Part shown: positions 338-5,284 of the stretch, piece by piece
Position numbering within the stretch: position 1 is the stretch's first letter
Layout: every line of letters begins with the position of its first letter
From: Escherichia coli
GTDB lineage: Bacteria; Pseudomonadota; Gammaproteobacteria; Enterobacterales; Enterobacteriaceae
Strand: one strand, 5' to 3'
Length of the DNA stretch: 5,284 nucleotides
Assembly (NCBI RefSeq): GCF_036507355.1
Contig: NZ_AP027882.1
Notes under the pieces: model-generated
What the model was told of the DNA's origin: nothing
Seen by the model: the letters and a program-made list of their open reading frames with translations, nothing else
The model's database searches: none
Made by a program: the position numbers and the translations under genes

Positions 338-1862
338 AATTCACTCGCGCGGTGCGGGCTCAGGCAGTGGTCCGGTGGATTATCTGCTGGGAAAAGACCG
401 GCAACGCGAACAGGCCAGTGTGCTGCGCGGCAACCCTGAATATGTGCGCGAGCTTATCGACGGCTGCGACTTTTCCCGCGCCTACACTTCCGGTGTGCTG
501 TCATTCCAGGAGCCGGACATTGCGGATGCCGAGAAATCGCGCCTGATGGATGAATGGGAGCACACGCTGCTGACCGGCCTCGACCGTGACCAGTACGCCT
601 GTCTGTGGGTGGAGCACCGCGACAAGGGACGGCTTGAGCTGAATTTTGTCATCCCGAACATCGAATTGCAGAGCGGCAAACGCCTTCAGCCCTACTTTGA
701 CCGCGCCGACCGCCCCCGCGTCAACGCCTGGCAGACCCTGACTAATGACCGGCTGGGGCTGCGTGACCCGAACGACCCGACCTGTCGCCGACCGCTGACA
801 CAGGCCAGCGATCTGCCCCGCGACAAACAGCTGGCGGCAGAGAAAATCACCACCGGCCTGATGAACCTGATGCAGCAGGGTGTGATCCGCAGCCGGCAGG
901 ACGTGGTGGCGCAGCTGGAAAGCTACGGCCTGACCGTGGCGCGGGAAACGAAAAGCAGCATCAGCATTGCCGATCCGGACGGTGGCAGAAATATCCGGCT
1001 GAAAGGAATGATTTATGAGCGAGATTTTAAATTTGGCGAAGGGCTTCGAGGAGAAATCGAAGCAGCAGGCGCAGGATATCGAGCAGAGCGTGAAGCGCGA
1101 GTTCGGGAGGCTGGAGATGTCTATCGGCGCGGAACTGCAATCAAGCTCGCAGAGCATCAGCAACGCTATCCGCGAGCAGAACGGCAGGCTGACGGGCATG
1201 ATCAGAGCCTCCGTCTCAACGGCGATGGCGTGGATATTCACCAGCTTCGCCCTGCTGATCGGCATCCTGGGCGGGATAATCTGGTTTCAGGGCACGATCA
1301 TCACCTCACGCCTGAGCGAAATGGACAGCTACAGCCAGCAGCTGGCGAGCCTGAAAGCGAAAAGTGGCGCGGGTGTGACGATTTACAGCGACGACTCCCG
1401 CCGGAACACCTACCTGGTGGTGCTGCCGAAGCAGGCACACGGTGTGGAAACCTACACGTCACAGGCCGGAAACACTGTAGTGAAATACACGGCGAAATAA
1501 CCCCATCAGAACGCCCTGAAACGCCTCAGCGCGTTTTTAACACCGAGGACGACCAAAACCATGACCGAGATGGAAAAACAGCTTCTGAGCGCCTTAGAGA
1601 GCTTACAGACAAGCTACGAGCAACAGCAGCAGGCATGGCAGGCCAGCTACAGCAGTTTGCAGCACATGTTCGAGACTACCTCGCAGGCGCTGGAACGCAG
1701 CGACAGGGTCTGTCAGCACTTGAGCAGTCAGGTGAACAGCTTGCGCGATCAGGTCGAGAACTTGAGCTGCAACGTCAGCCGGTTAATGCGCTCGTGAAGC
1801 AGCACGAACACCAGATTCAGATGGAAAAAAAGCGGACACGTTATCACGGCCTTTCAATTTAA
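327..1862 (+). CDS. mbeA: Mobilization relaxase, ColE1 MbeA-like (MOB HEN family)
   Basis: Long GC-rich ORF (open from TTG 303). N-terminus from GTG 327 reads MIVKIHSRGAGSGSGPVDYLLG, closely resembling ColE1 MbeA including the catalytic-Tyr context. Conserved stretch WVEHRDKGRLELNFVIPN (nt about 606-659) carries the His/Glu/Asn motif. GGAG at 316-319 sits 7 nt before GTG 327, so I prefer 327 over 303; the start is uncertain. Confidence 0.88.
   Translation: MIVKIHSRGAGSGSGPVDYLLGKDRQREQASVLRGNPEYVRELIDGCDFSRAYTSGVLSFQEPDIADAEKSRLMDEWEHTLLTGLDRDQYACLWVEHRDKGRLELNFVIPNIELQSGKRLQPYFDRADRPRVNAWQTLTNDRLGLRDPNDPTCRRPLTQASDLPRDKQLAAEKITTGLMNLMQQGVIRSRQDVVAQLESYGLTVARETKSSISIADPDGGRNIRLKGMIYERDFKFGEGLRGEIEAAGAGYRAEREARVREAGDVYRRGTAIKLAEHQQRYPRAERQADGHDQSLRLNGDGVDIHQLRPADRHPGRDNLVSGHDHHLTPERNGQLQPAAGEPESEKWRGCDDLQRRLPPEHLPGGAAEAGTRCGNLHVTGRKHCSEIHGEITPSERPETPQRVFNTEDDQNHDRDGKTASERLRELTDKLRATAAGMAGQLQQFAAHVRDYLAGAGTQRQGLSALEQSGEQLARSGRELELQRQPVNALVKQHEHQIQMEKKRTRYHGLSI
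1015..1500 (+). CDS. mbeB: Mobilization protein MbeB-like, nested within mbeA in an alternate frame
   Basis: 161-aa ORF in a different frame from mbeA, AAGGA 7 nt upstream of the ATG, central hydrophobic segment (AMAWIFTSFALLIGILGGIIWF). Position and size match the mbeB gene nested in ColE1 mbeA. Confidence 0.75.
   Translation: MSEILNLAKGFEEKSKQQAQDIEQSVKREFGRLEMSIGAELQSSSQSISNAIREQNGRLTGMIRASVSTAMAWIFTSFALLIGILGGIIWFQGTIITSRLSEMDSYSQQLASLKAKSGAGVTIYSDDSRRNTYLVVLPKQAHGVETYTSQAGNTVVKYTAK
1561..1797 (+). CDS. mbeD: MbeD-like mobilization/entry-exclusion protein, nested in the 3' part of mbeA
   Basis: 78-aa ORF in the same alternate frame as mbeB, GAGGA upstream, Gln/Ser-rich probable coiled coil (MTEMEKQLLSALESLQ..). 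Matches the position and character of ColE1 mbeD. Confidence 0.7.
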   Translation: MTEMEKQLLSALESLQTSYEQQQQAWQASYSSLQHMFETTSQALERSDRVCQHLSSQVNSLRDQVENLSCNVSRLMRS

Positions 1863-1897
1863 GAGTCATGTAAGTTGTTTTTAAGGTTTTTTTTAAC

Positions 1898-1925
1898 TTG
1901 ATATAAGGTCTATGTAATGTATATT
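1898..1925 (+). promoter_or_regulatory. Candidate sigma70 promoter (TTGATA, 16-bp spacer, TATATT) in the AT-rich islet, upstream of the 78-aa ORF
   Basis: TTGATA at 1898-1903 and TATATT at 1920-1925 with a 16-bp spacer, in a strongly AT-rich intergenic stretch. Sequence-pattern call only. Confidence 0.3.
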
Positions 1926-1958
1926 TATCTCGATTTTTAATTGAGGTAAAAAGTAAAA

Positions 1959-2195
1959 ATGGCTAAGGGTGCTCAAGCAATTTCTAAAGAAATAAACGAG
2001 TTAATGAGAAAAAACGGGAATGAGTGCATTACCTTGAAGTGGGAGCAGTTCTACGAGATATGTGAAAGAGAAAGGCTTGCAGAAGTAGTCATGGAAAGAG
2101 TGTCAGAAAGCCTTAAAAAAAATGACCTTCATATTATCTACGGTAACAACGTGATTATCGTAAGAGATTTCTGTTGGAAACCCGTTTCTCTTTAG
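1959..2195 (+). CDS. Hypothetical small protein (78 aa), unknown function
   Basis: ATG at 1959 preceded by GAGGT (1944-1948). AT-rich codon usage distinct from the flanking GC-rich genes. No family recognised from the translation. Only ORF in the islet. Confidence 0.5.
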   Translation: MAKGAQAISKEINELMRKNGNECITLKWEQFYEICERERLAEVVMERVSESLKKNDLHIIYGNNVIIVRDFCWKPVSL

Positions 2196-2201
2196 TGATT
2201 A

Positions 2202-2229
2202 GTGACAACGTGTTGTTTTAAGGTATAAG
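2202..2229 (+). promoter_or_regulatory. Candidate rep promoter (GTGACA, 16-bp spacer, TATAAG)
   Basis: GTGACA at 2202-2207 and TATAAG at 2224-2229. Would give a leader of roughly 140 nt before the rep start, consistent with leader-based control of ColE2-type rep genes. Pattern-based only. Confidence 0.3.
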
Positions 2230-2373
2230 TTTAACGGCAGAAAAAACAAAGCCCCGGCAATCATGAGCTATCTTGGCGGATGAGCATGACTACCAGGGCC
2301 AGGTACAAAACCTTGAAAGGATATTAGCACATGAACTGTGCCAGACAACAGCCCGCCATAAGCGCAGGGCGCT

Positions 2374-3270
2374 TTGAGTAACGCCGCACTCGAACTATTC
2401 AACGAACGCTTGCCGCACAAGCCGTACTTTTCGGACGATTTGCACTTTGGTGTACGCATTGCCGGCAAGGAACGCGCCATTCTGGCGAAATACATCCAGT
2501 TCAATCAGCCTCATGCCATGTTCTGGCTGGGATTCGATGTTGATCGCGCCGGTGCCGCTATTGACTGGAGTGACCGCAATGCTCCCGCGCCCACACTGAC
2601 CATCACCAACCCCGAAAACGGACACGCGCATCTGCTGTACGCGCTAAAAACCTCGATACGCACAGCGCCGGACGGAAAAATGAAGCCGCTGCGCTACGCT
2701 GCCGCCGTGGAGAACGCGCTACGTAAAAAATTAGAGGCTGACGCGGGGTATTCAGGGTTAATCTGCAAAAATCCGAACCACAGGCACTGGAAAATTGCCG
2801 TGTGGCAGCCGGAACTCTACACACTGGACTGGCTGGCCGATTTCCTTGACCTGAACGCTGCGAACGATAAAGAAATCGTTGCCGACTACGGATTAGGCCG
2901 TAACTGCACCTTGTTCGACAAAACCCGAAAATGGGCTTATCGTGCTATTCGTCAGGGCTGGCCTGAGTATGGACAATGGATGCTAGCTTGTGTTGAAAGA
3001 GCTACAGCTTACAACATGCAGTTTTCAGCACCATTAGATGAAAAGGAGGTCATAAGTATAGCGAAGAGTATATCTAAATGGACATATTCTAAATTCACAC
3101 AGCAATCTTTCGATGAATATGTTAAGAAAACACACTCAGCTGAATGTCAGAGTATAAGAGGGCGCAAGAGCTCTGGCGGAGGGCGGCCAAAAATAAGATC
3201 TGAGGAGTGGGTCTCTCTAGGTATTAGTCGCGCTACGTGGTATAGGAAGCACTATAAAAATGAAAATTAA
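2374..3270 (+). CDS. rep: ColE2-type plasmid replication initiator (Rep, primase-like replicase with PriCT-like and C-terminal HTH regions)
   Basis: 298-aa ORF starting at TTG 2374, with an in-frame stop at 2359-2361 just upstream. Translation (..ERLPHKPYFSDD..FDVDRAGAAIDWSDRNAPAP..NGHAHLLYAL..YSGLICKNPNHRHW..GLGRNCTLFDKTRKWAYRAIRQGWP..) follows the conserved blocks of ColE2-family Rep as I recall them. C-terminus has a basic tract and an HTH-like WVSLGISRATWYRK. Base composition switches from GC-rich to AT-rich near 2950. Confidence 0.85.
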   Translation: MSNAALELFNERLPHKPYFSDDLHFGVRIAGKERAILAKYIQFNQPHAMFWLGFDVDRAGAAIDWSDRNAPAPTLTITNPENGHAHLLYALKTSIRTAPDGKMKPLRYAAAVENALRKKLEADAGYSGLICKNPNHRHWKIAVWQPELYTLDWLADFLDLNAANDKEIVADYGLGRNCTLFDKTRKWAYRAIRQGWPEYGQWMLACVERATAYNMQFSAPLDEKEVISIAKSISKWTYSKFTQQSFDEYVKKTHSAECQSIRGRKSSGGGRPKIRSEEWVSLGISRATWYRKHYKNEN

Positions 3271-3916
3271 GATGTATGTCTTGTCTTTGTTTTTTTTGTT
3301 TATACCAATAATTTTTTATTTTTCTGGTATTGATGATGTCTGGAACGTTTTTACCAAAGCTAATGGTTTTTGTGATGGCGTCAGTAATCGTATTGTCTGT
3401 ATAACAGGTAATATGGGCAACCAGCTATCTCTATCCGTGTCAAGGTTATGCGTTTGTATTTTTTTGGTCTTTTTGTGTGGCTATACTTACTGGTGGTATA
3501 AGAGACAGCTTTCATTTTTGGATAGGGGGATTACCTCTGCCGAAGTGGTTGTTGTTGGATGCGAAAAAGAGTCAACTGAGTATCTGTCATTTTTGTCAAC
3601 TTACATAATGCCCCTGGTTTTTACAGACTTAACAAAACCTTCAAATGTTTTCAATTTCATTTTTATTCTAGTTATTGTCGGATTTCTTCATATAAAAACA
3701 AGAAGGATTCATAGCAACCCAACGCTTTCATTGTTTGGTGTTTCTGCTTACAAAATTGACTATATAATCAGGGTTGATGGTCAGGATTCTGATATCACAA
3801 AAGGATTGATTGTCCTGTCGAAGGATGAGATATCTGTGAAAAGTGTAATTCGAATCATAAAAAAAGAAGACTACATTACATTCGCAAAATACATAAGGAA
3901 CGATTCAAATGGCTGA
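3260..3916 (+). CDS. Multi-pass inner-membrane protein, unknown function (about 4 predicted TM helices plus a roughly 70-aa soluble C-terminal domain)
   Basis: 218-aa AT-rich ORF. Hydrophobic segments at about aa 5-23, 57-80, 108-121 and 129-145, followed by a charged tail. ATG 3260 overlaps the rep stop (3268-3270); AGGAAG at 3244-3249. An alternative in-frame ATG is at 3272. Confidence 0.7.
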   Translation: MKIKMYVLSLFFLFIPIIFYFSGIDDVWNVFTKANGFCDGVSNRIVCITGNMGNQLSLSVSRLCVCIFLVFLCGYTYWWYKRQLSFLDRGITSAEVVVVGCEKESTEYLSFLSTYIMPLVFTDLTKPSNVFNFIFILVIVGFLHIKTRRIHSNPTLSLFGVSAYKIDYIIRVDGQDSDITKGLIVLSKDEISVKSVIRIIKKEDYITFAKYIRNDSNG

Positions 3917-5054
3917 AGAAAAACTGGATTTAAGCGAGCTCCATCATGACGCGCAGAAGGCCTCTGAGCTCTCATCCTATTACTCCCACTTCGATACAAA
4001 GGTAGAAGATTTTGACCTTCATGTATATTTTAACTTTAGGCATAAGATAAAGGGCGGTGATGGAAAGTACCGTTACGAATATCGGGTTGCAAAAATAGAT
4101 GATACTACTGTTCTGAAAGAATCAATCAAAGATAACGTGATAACAAAAACCCTTAATGATCTAAGTAGCGGTAGAGTTGCAGTATCTGATATAAAGCAGC
4201 TTAGTGATAGGGCTAGCACTATATCATTTTTAGAAGATGCAAAGTCATACAAAGATGAACAGATGTCTTTTTTGACAGGTATTATTTTTGATAAGGGATT
4301 TGGAGGTGATGGGGATATTCCTGTCGTCAATTTTGAGAAGTTTGATAAAATATCAAAGGTTGACTCAATTGTTTTTGTCTTAAGGAAAGGTGATAAATGT
4401 ATAACAATATACAAAAAACAGTATCCTATACAGAACCTGACCAAACAGAAAAATCATTACTTCTCATATAGCAAAGATACGTTATCAAAAATAGATGCTG
4501 ACATGATATCAATTGATGGAAAAGCCTCTATTGTTTTTGTTAAAGGTACTGCATATATCTATGATCAGGATGTTTTTGAGAAATTTTTCGGATACAAGAA
4601 GTGGATAAAAAAAGTTGCGGGCGAATTTGTTTCTGAAATGAAGCAAAAATTTTCATCGATAGTAGACTTTGGAAAAGTTACCGACAGGCTTGAAAAAGAA
4701 AGTGCTGATGCAGATGCCTTTTCAAGGAAACTGGCAAGAATATATAACAATAAAGATCTAAGAGCTTCCTTTAATACTGTTACACCAGAAAAAATCAGTG
4801 ATTTTTTAGTTGAAAATGAGTATTTCGCTAGATTGCTAAAGTACAAATCAGCGGAAGAACCTTTAGAAGTATCAACCCATGATCAGCAGGAAGCATTTAT
4901 ATTAATAGTTTCTGAGGGCGTTCTTCGCTCGCTTATTACTGGTTTTGATTATTTAAGCCCTGCCGCGAAAAGAAAAATTGCGACAGGCCAAACCGCGCAA
5001 AAACCTTCTTCTGTAGTAACTAGGATACCCTCCAGCGCATCTGACGCCGCCTAA
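3909..5054 (+). CDS. Hypothetical 381-aa soluble protein, unknown function; candidate effector or sensor partner of the upstream membrane protein
   Basis: Long AT-rich ORF with AAGGAA 8 nt upstream. ATG 3909 overlaps the upstream stop (3914-3916) in an ATGGCTGA junction. No Walker, HxH, nuclease or other motif recognisable by eye. Ends just upstream of a strong hairpin plus T-run. Confidence 0.8.
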   Translation: MAEEKLDLSELHHDAQKASELSSYYSHFDTKVEDFDLHVYFNFRHKIKGGDGKYRYEYRVAKIDDTTVLKESIKDNVITKTLNDLSSGRVAVSDIKQLSDRASTISFLEDAKSYKDEQMSFLTGIIFDKGFGGDGDIPVVNFEKFDKISKVDSIVFVLRKGDKCITIYKKQYPIQNLTKQKNHYFSYSKDTLSKIDADMISIDGKASIVFVKGTAYIYDQDVFEKFFGYKKWIKKVAGEFVSEMKQKFSSIVDFGKVTDRLEKESADADAFSRKLARIYNNKDLRASFNTVTPEKISDFLVENEYFARLLKYKSAEEPLEVSTHDQQEAFILIVSEGVLRSLITGFDYLSPAAKRKIATGQTAQKPSSVVTRIPSSASDAA

Positions 5055-5077
5055 CGAACGAGCTTGAGACAAAACAA

Positions 5078-5125
5078 CCTATATCAGATAACAGCCCTCT
5101 CTAAGAGAGGGCTGTTTTTTTTGCA
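5078..5125 (+). other. Candidate ColE2-type replication origin element
   Basis: TATCAGATAACAGC at about 5081-5094 matches the core of the ColE2 ori as I remember it (recall, not search), and is followed immediately by the hairpin and T-run. It lies about 1.8 kb downstream of rep, not directly after it. Confidence 0.4.
5091..5122 (+). terminator. Rho-independent terminator-like hairpin with T-run closing the rep-cargo operon
   Basis: Perfect inverted repeat ACAGCCCTCTC (5091-5101) / GAGAGGGCTGT (5105-5115) around a TAA loop, followed by eight T (5115-5122). Read directly from the sequence. Confidence 0.65.
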
Positions 5126-5139
5126 GCCAGCACAGAATC

Positions 5140-5245
5140 TGACATACTACACCATACCATAAGCCAGTACACACAGCGTCCCCTCTGCGAGGTGCCGTCT
5201 GTGACTGGTTCAGGGGGCTCGCCGCCCCCCGAAACCCCCGGCATC
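5140..5245 (-). other. ColE1 bom-like oriT with putative nic site (minus strand)
   Basis: Minus strand reads ..GAACCAGTCAC..(31 nt)..GTGTGTACTGGCTTATGGTATG.., resembling the pBR322/ColE1 bom region ..GACCCAGTCAC..GTGTATACTGGCTTAACTATG.. recalled from memory. Putative nic within CTGG/CTTA, between plus-strand 5163 and 5164. GC-rich inverted repeat GGGGGC / GCCCCC at 5213-5229 nearby. Confidence 0.5.
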
Positions 5246-5284
5246 CACTGCGAAAAATTCTCACGGTGGTGCGAATTTTTTCTT

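What the first reader, a model, noticed from the sequence alone, without database searches (positions are those of the whole stretch)
5078..5125. ColE2-like origin motif about 1.8 kb from rep and fused to the operon terminator
In ColE2-type replicons, as I recall them, the origin sits immediately 3' of rep. Here a motif of that type (TATCAGATAACAGC) appears only after the two cargo genes, and it overlaps a perfect 11-bp hairpin with a T-run. The cargo may therefore have been inserted between rep and ori, and the hairpin may serve as both terminator and origin structure.
Basis: partly seen in the sequence, partly recalled or inferred. Interest (0 to 1): 0.6.

Follow-up and report, generated by a model that had tools for sequence, protein, structure and literature searches.

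The report
Displaced ColE2-type plasmid origin after Kiwa cargo
The motif is the real replication origin of a small, already sequenced plasmid, separated from its replication gene by a two-gene anti-phage (Kiwa) cassette; close relatives such as pMUT2 of E. coli Nissle 1917 are already known to be built this way, so the finding is correct but ordinary.

Summary
TATCAGATAACAGC lies at 5082-5095, 1811 nt after the rep stop codon. It overlaps a 12-bp hairpin (5090-5116) that runs into a run of eight T (5115-5122).

The window is a complete 5284-bp plasmid that is 99.9% identical to database records. Its Rep is ColE2-type: Pfam PF03090 plus PF08708, with a C-terminus that matches the ColE2-P9 Rep DNA-binding domain (PDB 3vw4). 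Window 5066-5097 matches the ColE2 32-bp origin at 25 of 32 positions. Window 5069-5094 is identical to the 26-bp oriV mapped by truncation in pMUT2.

The cargo is kwaA/kwaB (Kiwa), with 36% G+C and start codons that overlap the preceding genes. In this Rep clade, all 17 measurable genome loci and all 35 metagenome contigs have a 0.4-5.5 kb low-GC slot between rep and ori. In more distant ColE2-type clades the origin mostly abuts rep.

The hairpin belongs to the backbone and keeps its pairing through compensatory changes, so it is most likely the rep-cargo terminator. It is absent beside the oriV in pMUT2-mini, so it is not needed for origin function.

The same layout was described for pUB6060 (2001), pHW66 (2010) and pMUT2. 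What may be new is that the slot is a hotspot for anti-phage defence genes.

The parts
5069..5094 (+). Core oriV: a 26-bp element identical to the experimentally delimited oriV of pMUT2
   Evidence: Single exact match in the window; 0 of 200 shuffles matched even with 3 mismatches. The pMUT2-mini plasmid pFB344 begins with this 26-mer, followed by unrelated DNA. It is also exact in L001, L006, L021 and L023.
5066..5097 (+). Equivalent of the 32-bp ColE2-P9 minimal origin
   Evidence: 25 of 32 positions match the ColE2 sequence without gaps; the best score in 200 shuffles was 22. The ColE2 sequence was read from the colicin-E2 plasmid pSSE. The limits of the ColE2 32-mer are taken from my memory of Yagura et al. 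2006.
5082..5095 (+). Invariant 14-mer TATCAGATAACAGC, containing the right-hand CAGATAA repeat
   Evidence: Exact here and in the 21 fetched plasmids or contigs that carry an origin. It occurs once per plasmid unit and always on the rep strand.
5086..5088 (+). Inferred priming site AGA (the primer is ppApGpA in ColE2)
   Evidence: This is the only AGA on either strand of the 26-bp oriV, read directly from the sequence. The primer identity is taken by analogy with ColE2 (PMC5304414) and was not tested.
5090..5122 (+). Intrinsic-terminator-like hairpin (5090-5116) running into a run of eight T (5115-5122); the probable 3' end of the rep-kwaA-kwaB transcript
   Evidence: A hairpin is kept at this position in 17 of 20 relatives, with 12 different stems and compensatory changes.
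2374..3270 (+). rep, encoding a ColE2-type initiator-primase
   Evidence: Pfam PF03090 (E = 3e-45) plus PF08708. Residues 176-292 match the ColE2-P9 Rep DNA-binding domain, PDB 3vw4, at E = 2.8e-24.
3260..3916 (+). kwaA (Kiwa membrane protein); its start codon overlaps the end of rep by 11 nt
   Evidence: PADLOC KwaA E = 1.9e-121. NCBIfam KwaA 173.9 bits against a cut-off of 100.
3909..5054 (+). kwaB (DUF4868); its start overlaps kwaA by 8 nt and its stop lies 14 nt before the oriV
   Evidence: PADLOC KwaB E = 1.2e-220. RefSeq records annotate it as a KwaB-like protein.
2249..2381 (+). rep translational-control leader: a stem-loop with a TTGGCG loop (2273-2278), a 16-codon leader ORF (2331-2381) that overlaps the rep start codon, and a distal CCCGCC (2352-2357)
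   Evidence: Rfam PK-repBA scores 35.8 bits here, below the gathering score of 45. The homologous sites in L012 and pMUT2 score 51.0 and 50.4 bits and pass it.

Best explanation
The window is a complete mobilizable plasmid of the pUB6060/pMUT2/pHW66 group; PLSDB types it as Col(Ye4449). Its vegetative origin is the 26-32 bp element at 5066-5097.

Proposed mechanism. Rep (2374-3270) acts in trans. It binds this element, unwinds it and makes a short primer at AGA (5086-5088). Leading-strand synthesis then runs rightwards, away from rep and the cargo, and goes once around the circle.

In the ancestral ColE2 layout the origin starts at the rep stop codon. In this clade a slot opened between the conserved end of Rep (...GISRATWYRK) and the origin. 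That slot now holds exchangeable low-GC cassettes, here the Kiwa anti-phage genes kwaA and kwaB. These genes are translationally nested behind rep, so they are probably co-transcribed with it.

The hairpin plus T-run just right of the origin is an old backbone feature. It most likely ends the rep(-cargo) transcript after the transcript has crossed the origin, and so shields the downstream oriT/mob region from read-through. It overlaps the origin by 5-8 nt but is not needed for origin function.

Shown here: the sequence identities, the gene content, the conservation and the junctions. Taken from experiments on relatives: origin activity, Rep acting in trans and the primer. Inferred only: co-transcription, termination at the hairpin and the direction of replication.
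For: - The plasmid is complete and already in databases, with replicon type Col(Ye4449).
- Rep is ColE2-type.
- Window 5066-5097 matches the ColE2 origin at 25 of 32 positions with the same spacing.
- Window 5069-5094 is identical to the pMUT2 oriV, which was mapped by stepwise truncation in vivo (10.1101/2023.06.05.543671).
- pMUT2 has the same rep-kwaA-kwaB-ori order. Its Rep is 79% identical, KwaA 57% and KwaB 54%, and the core lies 1796 nt after rep.
- ColE2 Rep works in trans on a 32-bp origin (PMC3163176).
- The slot has 36% G+C against 47% for the whole plasmid.
- Homology to relatives breaks off inside the 3' end of rep and resumes at 5061-5071, exactly at the left edge of the origin.
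- Rep proteins stay conserved up to ...YRK and then have variable tails.
- All 17 measurable genome loci have gaps of 531-2548 nt.
- All 35 metagenome contigs with Rep at least 64% identical have gaps of 435 nt or more. Of 64 contigs with more distant Reps, 46 have gaps of 16 nt or less.
- The hairpin is conserved with compensatory changes, including in relatives whose cargo is on the other strand (L005, L013, L015, L019) and in ColE2 itself.
- There is no other strong + strand terminator after rep.
- The rep/kwaA and kwaA/kwaB codons overlap.
Against: - No experiment was done on this plasmid.
- The left-hand direct repeat of the ColE2 origin is degenerate here: AAAACAA against CAGATAA.
- The pMUT2 oriV mapping comes from a preprint, and only the first part of the pFB344 sequence is held. 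I therefore could not see what lies on the other side of its oriV.
- The DIAL study found that the bare 32-bp ColE2 origin gave small colonies while a 470-bp fragment behaved normally. Flanking sequence, possibly including the hairpin, may therefore add robustness.
- A cargo-internal promoter cannot be excluded. Promoter-like sites were no more frequent than in shuffled sequence.
- The pUB6060 paper title calls that plasmid DNA polymerase I-independent (cited). Details of the ColE2 mechanism may not carry over.
Confidence: 0.85

Rival explanations
1. The hairpin is a working part of the origin. For example, it might form a DNA structure that helps unwinding, primer hand-off or loading of the lagging-strand machinery, so that terminator and origin are truly one element.
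For: The hairpin always starts within the last bases of the invariant core, and its pairing is kept by compensatory changes in 17 of 20 plasmids, ColE2 included. The minimal 32-bp ColE2 origin performed worse than a 470-bp fragment.
Against: The pMUT2 oriV was trimmed to 26 bp ending at ...CAG. In the stable vector pFB344 (about 22 copies per cell) it is followed by kanamycin-cassette DNA rather than a hairpin. The 32-bp ColE2 origin takes in only the first few bases of the stem. L009, L010 and L018 have a weak hairpin, or a different one, at this spot. A GC-rich stem followed by a T-run is the standard signature of an intrinsic terminator.
Confidence: 0.1
2. The separated layout is ancestral, or the origin moved, rather than cargo being inserted between an adjacent rep and ori.
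For: Every member of this Rep clade examined has the gap. No intermediate with an adjacent origin was seen within the clade.
Against: More distant ColE2-type clades with the same core mostly have the origin 0-16 nt from rep, as does ColE2. TGAGAC supplies the rep stop codon in ColE2, and it is retained to the right of the cargo here; in pMUT2 it supplies the kwaB stop codon. The slot content has a foreign composition and differs between close relatives.
Confidence: 0.07
3. The motif is a relic, and the plasmid replicates from some other site.
For: No direct evidence. The left repeat of the ColE2 origin is degenerate here.
Against: The window has only one copy, and no second site within 3 mismatches of the 26-mer. 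The 14-mer is invariant in every relative while the flanks vary. The identical 26-mer is required for pMUT2 replication.
Confidence: 0.02

Closest known systems
pMUT2 of Escherichia coli Nissle 1917 (5514 bp; NZ_CP069640.1)
   Same: The order of parts is the same: ColE1-type mob genes, rep with a PK-repBA-type leader, kwaA overlapping the end of rep, kwaB, then TGAGAC plus the origin plus a hairpin. The 26-bp oriV is identical. Rep is 79% identical. The Kiwa system on pMUT2 has already been noted (PMC13226779).
   Different: KwaA is only 57% identical and KwaB 54%. In pMUT2 the kwaB stop codon is the TGA of TGAGAC, whereas here kwaB stops 11 nt before GAGAC. pMUT2 carries relBE in the second variable slot, where this plasmid has a 78-aa ORF. 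The hairpin stem sequences differ.
pHW66 (Rahnella) and pUB6060 (Plesiomonas)
   Same: Both are described as ColE2-like replicons with ColE1-type mobA-D genes. In pHW66 a low-GC (36%) insert of more than 2 kb, with two genes apparently cistronic with repA, separates repA from the putative oriV. A low-GC insert next to repA is also reported for pUB6060 (PMC2831885).
   Different: The cargo genes differ and were of unknown function at the time. I did not fetch these sequences.
ColE2-P9 / ColE3-CA38 replicons
   Same: The Rep family and DNA-binding domain are shared. So is the origin core, including TGAGAC, the 11-nt spacer and TATCAGATAACAGC, followed by a small hairpin and a T-run.
   Different: In ColE2 the origin begins at the rep stop codon (14 nt to the core), against 1811 nt here. 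The left repeat is intact in ColE2. The control region upstream of rep is unrelated: ColE2 gives no PK-repBA hit, and nucleotide homology covers only the rep coding region. The mobilization system is MOBQ rather than the MbeA type.
IncB/IncI-alpha-type rep control (Rfam RF01089, PK-repBA)
   Same: The leader upstream of rep has a stem-loop with a TTGGCG loop, a short leader ORF that overlaps the rep start codon, and a distal complementary CCCGCC.
   Different: That control module is attached here to a ColE2-type primase and origin, not to an IncB/I initiator. The window's own score is below Rfam's threshold.

Membership tests
ColE2-type (class C theta) replicon | Initiator with the Replicase (PF03090) and PriCT-1 (PF08708) domains and a C-terminal origin-binding domain | tested here: met
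   Pfam E = 3e-45 and 1.7e-10. Residues 176-292 match PDB 3vw4 at E = 2.8e-24. PMC6856555 gives PF03090 + PF08708 as the ColE2-like signature.
ColE2-type (class C theta) replicon | Origin of about 32 bp with sequence similarity to the ColE2/ColE3 origin, on the rep strand | tested here: met
   25 of 32 ungapped matches at 5066-5097, against a maximum of 22 in 200 shuffles.
ColE2-type (class C theta) replicon | Two direct repeats within the origin (CAGATAA twice in ColE2) | tested here: inconclusive
   The right repeat is intact (5085-5091). The left position reads AAAACAA, 4 of 7 matches. Most of the clade shares this form, and L008 keeps CAGATAA.
ColE2-type (class C theta) replicon | Origin immediately downstream of rep | tested here: not met
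   1811 nt here, against 14 nt in the colicin-E2 plasmid pSSE.
ColE2-type (class C theta) replicon | Rep-dependent synthesis of a ppApGpA primer at the origin, and dependence on DNA polymerase I | not testable with these tools
   The oriV holds a single AGA (5086-5088). The pUB6060 paper title reports independence from polymerase I (cited).
ColE2-type (class C theta) replicon | Control of rep translation by an antisense RNA against the rep leader | tested here: inconclusive
   Hits below threshold: CopA-like on the - strand at 2244-2328 (28.2 bits, gathering 60) and PK-repBA on the + strand. The leader is not homologous to that of ColE2.
pUB6060/pMUT2/pHW66 subgroup (Col(Ye4449)-like) | ColE2-type Rep closely related to that of pMUT2, combined with ColE1-type mobilization genes | tested here: met
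   Rep is 79% identical to pMUT2 Rep. MbeA scores 474 bits, below the NCBIfam cut-off of 500; MbeD scores 109 bits, above its cut-off of 60. mobC and mbeB are annotated in the records. PLSDB types the plasmid as Col(Ye4449) and MOBP.
pUB6060/pMUT2/pHW66 subgroup (Col(Ye4449)-like) | Low-GC insert between rep and the origin | tested here: met
   The slot has 36% G+C against 47% for the plasmid. All clade members examined have such a slot.
pUB6060/pMUT2/pHW66 subgroup (Col(Ye4449)-like) | oriV matching the mapped pMUT2 26-mer | tested here: met
   Identical at 5069-5094.
Rho-independent (intrinsic) terminator | GC-rich stem-loop followed directly by a T-run, downstream of an operon on the same strand | tested here: met
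   12-bp stem with 7 G-C pairs, a 3-nt loop and a run of eight T. Structure is conserved through compensatory changes.
Rho-independent (intrinsic) terminator | Transcript 3' ends at the T-run | not testable with these tools
   No transcript data are available.
Kiwa defence system | Adjacent kwaA (membrane protein) and kwaB (DUF4868) genes | tested here: met
   PADLOC E = 1.9e-121 and 1.2e-220. NCBIfam KwaA is above its cut-off, while KwaB is below (92 bits against 200). Anti-phage activity was not tested.

The most novel reading that the evidence does not exclude
The interval between the end of rep and the origin in this plasmid clade may be a dedicated cassette-exchange site that mainly collects anti-phage defence genes. 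The cargo found there includes Kiwa, PD-T4-5/Abi, DUF262 NsnA-like proteins, TIR proteins, PARIS AriAB, OLD-like ATPases, type II and type IIG restriction-modification systems, DarT-like proteins and ApeA-like proteins.

Its right boundary is fixed at the origin. In a plasmid that replicates in one direction, that point is also where replication ends. Cassette gain could therefore be driven by recombination or template switching at the replication terminus, and not only by homologous exchange between related plasmids. Cargo expression would be tied to the rep transcript.

I found no description of this hotspot in the searchable literature. The mechanism is pure inference.
Probability: 0.3. Interest if true: 0.55.

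Novelty: already known. Interest (0 to 1): 0.25.

Why it matters
For annotation, the result places the unannotated oriV of a circulating Salmonella, E. coli and Dickeya plasmid at 5069-5094. It also shows that the plasmid's cargo, an anti-phage system, sits inside the replicon unit and is probably expressed with rep.

For vector design, it supports the view that the 26-bp element plus Rep in trans is sufficient and that the adjoining hairpin can be treated as a separate terminator.

The wider pattern is that small, high-copy mobilizable ColE2-type plasmids carry one interchangeable defence cassette at a fixed site. This bears on how phage resistance spreads among Enterobacterales and could serve as a place to look for new defence genes. 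The specific finding submitted, however, repeats what is already known for pUB6060, pHW66 and pMUT2.

Tried and rejected
- The key ColE2 origin papers (Yagura 2006; Hiraga 1994) are not held. Full-text searches for the origin sequence found nothing relevant. I instead recovered the ColE2 origin from a colicin-E2 plasmid whose Rep DNA-binding domain is 100% identical to PDB 3vw4.
- RNAalifold on the MAFFT alignment of origin regions gave no consensus structure, because loops of different length put the stems out of register. I replaced it with per-sequence folding and a stem tabulation anchored on the invariant core.
- An origin-like near match at 2339-2352 (3 mismatches) was considered as a possible Rep operator. 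It is expected by chance (0.38 per window). It lies in the conserved leader-peptide/pseudoknot element, which explains its conservation, and it is more diverged in pMUT2. Rejected.
- I looked for a vestigial origin directly after rep and found none.
- The idea that the hairpin arrived with the Kiwa cassette is rejected. It lies to the right of the homology junction and is present in relatives with other cargo.
- L014 and L020 could not be used for gap measurement: L014 is an excerpt of a large contig, and the L020 contig ends inside rep.
- The pFB344 sequence held in the supplement is cut short, so the full make-up of pMUT2-mini could not be checked.
- GC skew is positive over nearly the whole + strand. 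That fits one-directional rightward replication, but all genes are also on that strand, so I did not use it as evidence.

Full report
**What the window is.** The 5284 bases are a complete circular plasmid. Eight PLSDB records cover at least 80% of it at 99.0-100% identity. They come from Salmonella, E. coli and Dickeya, and several are exactly 5284 bp long. PLSDB types the plasmid as replicon Col(Ye4449) with a MOBP relaxase.

All genes are on the + strand:
- mobC, 11-337
- an MbeA-type relaxase, about 327-1862, with mbeB (1015-1500) nested inside it
- mbeD, 1561-1797
- a 78-aa ORF in a low-GC patch, 1959-2195
- rep, 2374-3270
- kwaA, 3260-3916
- kwaB, 3909-5054

**Checking the observation.** TATCAGATAACAGC occurs once, at 5082-5095, 1811 nt after the rep stop codon. 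The hairpin AACAGCCCTCTC/TAA/GAGAGGGCTGTT spans 5090-5116 and merges into a run of eight T at 5115-5122. It folds at about -21 to -23 kcal/mol, with z = -3.8 against shuffles. The motif's last six bases form the start of the 5' arm.

**Is it a ColE2-type origin?**
- Rep has Pfam Replicase PF03090 and PriCT-1 PF08708, the signature quoted for ColE2-like initiators (PMC6856555).
- Rep's C-terminal 117 residues align with the ColE2-P9 Rep DNA-binding domain crystallised with origin DNA (PDB 3vw4, E = 2.8e-24).
- The original origin papers are not held. I therefore found a colicin-E2 plasmid (pSSE) whose Rep domain is identical to 3vw4 and read its sequence. It runs ...AAAA TGA GACCAGATAAGCCTTATCAGATAACAGCGCCCTTTTGGCGTCTTTTT, so the origin begins at the rep stop codon.
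- The window reads TGAGACAAAACAACCTATATCAGATAACAGCCCTCTC.... It has the same TGAGAC, the same 11-nt spacer and the same 14-mer. That gives 25 of 32 ungapped matches at 5066-5097, against a maximum of 22 in 200 shuffles.
- ColE2 also has a small hairpin (GCGCC/GGCGT) and a T-run right after the core. The "fusion" of origin and terminator is therefore ancestral and not special to this plasmid.

**Functional evidence from a sibling plasmid.** pMUT2 of E. coli Nissle 1917 shares the whole layout: rep (79% identical), kwaA overlapping the end of rep (57%), kwaB (54%), then TGAGAC and the core 1796 nt after rep.

A preprint mapped the pMUT2 oriV to 26 bp by stepwise truncation in vivo (10.1101/2023.06.05.543671). 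Its supplementary sequence of the working mini-plasmid pFB344 begins ACAAAACAACCTATATCAGATAACAG and continues directly into kanamycin-cassette DNA. That 26-mer is identical to window 5069-5094.

So the origin assignment rests on an experiment in a close relative. The same construct shows that the hairpin is dispensable for replication. Separately, the ColE2 32-bp origin replicates with Rep supplied in trans (PMC3163176), so distance from rep poses no mechanistic problem. The 26-mer contains a single AGA on either strand (5086-5088). If the primer is ppApGpA as in ColE2 (PMC5304414), that is the start site and synthesis proceeds rightwards. This step is inference.

**Was the cargo inserted between rep and ori?** Several lines of evidence say yes.
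- The slot has 36% G+C against 47% for the plasmid. The drop starts inside the 3' third of rep, near position 2950.
- Nucleotide homology to 20 relatives runs through mob and through rep up to 3083-3161. It then stops and resumes at 5061-5071, exactly at the left edge of the origin.
- At protein level, the Reps stay conserved up to ...GISRATWYRK and then have variable tails of 3-12 residues. The left junction is therefore the very end of rep.
- In 17 measurable genome contigs of this Rep clade (75-95% identity), the core lies 531-2548 nt after rep.
- In a metagenome scan for the origin core, all 35 contigs with Rep at least 64% identical have gaps of 435-5479 nt, and the slots are low in G+C. 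Of 64 contigs with more distant ColE2-type Reps, 46 have gaps of 16 nt or less and 56 have gaps of 141 nt or less.
- The gap is thus a derived trait of this clade and its content turns over.
- Caveats: the metagenome sample contains duplicates of the same plasmids and is biased by the search pattern used.

**What the hairpin is.** A hairpin starting at the G of the core's final GC is present in 17 of 20 plasmids. There are 12 different stems, with compensatory double changes at stem positions 3-7, and nearly all are followed by a T-run. It is present whatever the cargo is, including where the cargo is on the opposite strand (L005, L013, L015, L019). It also lies to the right of the cassette junction.

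It is the only strong + strand terminator after rep. kwaA overlaps rep by 11 nt and kwaB overlaps kwaA by 8 nt. The simplest reading is a rep-kwaA-kwaB transcript that crosses the origin and ends at 5117-5122, just before the conserved non-coding stretch that leads to mobC. A supporting role in origin robustness cannot be excluded, because the bare 32-bp ColE2 origin performed poorly in one study. I give that reading about 10%.

**Prior art.**
- Rozhon et al. 2010 wrote that ColE2-like origins are usually immediately downstream of repA. In pHW66, however, the putative oriV is separated from repA by an insert of more than 2 kb with 36% G+C, carrying two genes apparently cistronic with repA. They noted a similar insert in pUB6060 (PMC2831885).
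- pMUT2 has long been described as ColE2-like and related to pUB6060.
- Kiwa on pMUT2 has been reported (PMC13226779).
- RefSeq already annotates kwaA and kwaB on this very plasmid.

The submitted finding is therefore correct but already known.

**What went beyond the finding.** The slot holds a striking range of defence genes across relatives:
- Kiwa
- PD-T4-5/Abi
- NsnA/PD-T4-2-like DUF262 proteins with a partner gene
- PDC-S58/ApeA-like proteins
- ATPase-Toprim/OLD-like proteins
- PDC-S15
- ThsB-like TIR proteins
- fused AriAB (PARIS)
- AriA/PtuA-like ATPases
- type II and type IIG restriction-modification systems
- a DarT-like protein

Small membrane proteins and other cargo with no PADLOC match also occur there. 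Searches of the held literature found no description of this site as a defence hotspot. That absence is weak evidence.

Separately, the rep leader matches Rfam PK-repBA. The match is below threshold here and above threshold in L012 and pMUT2. It comes with a 16-codon leader ORF that overlaps the rep start codon. This suggests that an IncB/I-type control module has been joined to a ColE2-type Rep and origin.

Noticed in passing
window 3246-5065; slots in L002, L004-L022, L023 and 35 metagenome loci (for example L061, L068, L071, L076, L094, L136): The rep-to-ori interval of this plasmid clade is a variable low-GC slot. It often holds anti-phage defence genes: Kiwa, PD-T4-5/Abi, NsnA-like DUF262, ApeA-like, OLD-like ATPase-Toprim, PDC-S15, TIR, PARIS AriAB, type II and type IIG restriction-modification, and DarT-like. 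The cargo can be on either strand, but the junctions are the same. Other slots hold small membrane proteins or a sulfatase-like gene with IS1. I found no description of this hotspot in the searchable literature.
   Followed up: partly
window 2249-2381 (+); L012 2889-3006; L023 4098-4211: The rep leader matches Rfam PK-repBA (RF01089), scoring 35.8 bits here and 51.0 and 50.4 bits in two relatives (gathering score 45). It has a stem-loop with a TTGGCG loop (2273-2278), a 16-codon leader ORF (2331-2381) that overlaps the rep TTG start at 2374, and a distal CCCGCC (2352-2357). This looks like IncB/IncI-type translational coupling, pseudoknot and antisense control joined to a ColE2-type Rep. ColE2 itself gives no hit.
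   Followed up: partly
window 1808-2222: A second variable low-GC patch (32-40% G+C) lies between mbeD and the rep leader. Here it holds a 78-aa ORF (1959-2195) with no family match and a promoter-like site at 1898-1925. pMUT2 has relBE at this position, and other relatives have RelE/ParE with NadS.
   Followed up: no
window 2950-3270: G+C falls from about 55% to about 41% inside rep, near position 2950. Nucleotide homology to relatives ends at 3083-3161, although the protein stays conserved up to ...YRK. The 3' third of rep, which encodes the PriCT and DNA-binding domains, may travel or diverge together with the cassette.
   Followed up: partly
window 5123-5284 and 1-10: The non-coding stretch between the terminator and mobC is conserved across relatives at 82-92% identity. 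It begins GCAGCCAGCACAGAATCTGACATAC and is probably the oriT region of the ColE1-type mobilization system.
   Followed up: no
L034, L081, L088, L102, L104, L112 (metagenome): Six contigs whose Rep is about 60% identical to the window's show 5.9-6.9 kb between rep and the nearest downstream origin core. These may be large insertions in another clade, or artefacts of treating the contigs as circular.
   Followed up: no
one search hits H50-H69: About 60 nt of the origin region (query bases 16-75, 85.5% identity) also occurs in many 37-46 kb and 190-290 kb plasmids of Salmonella, E. coli and Klebsiella. This suggests captured or cointegrated ColE2-type origins in large plasmids.
   Followed up: no
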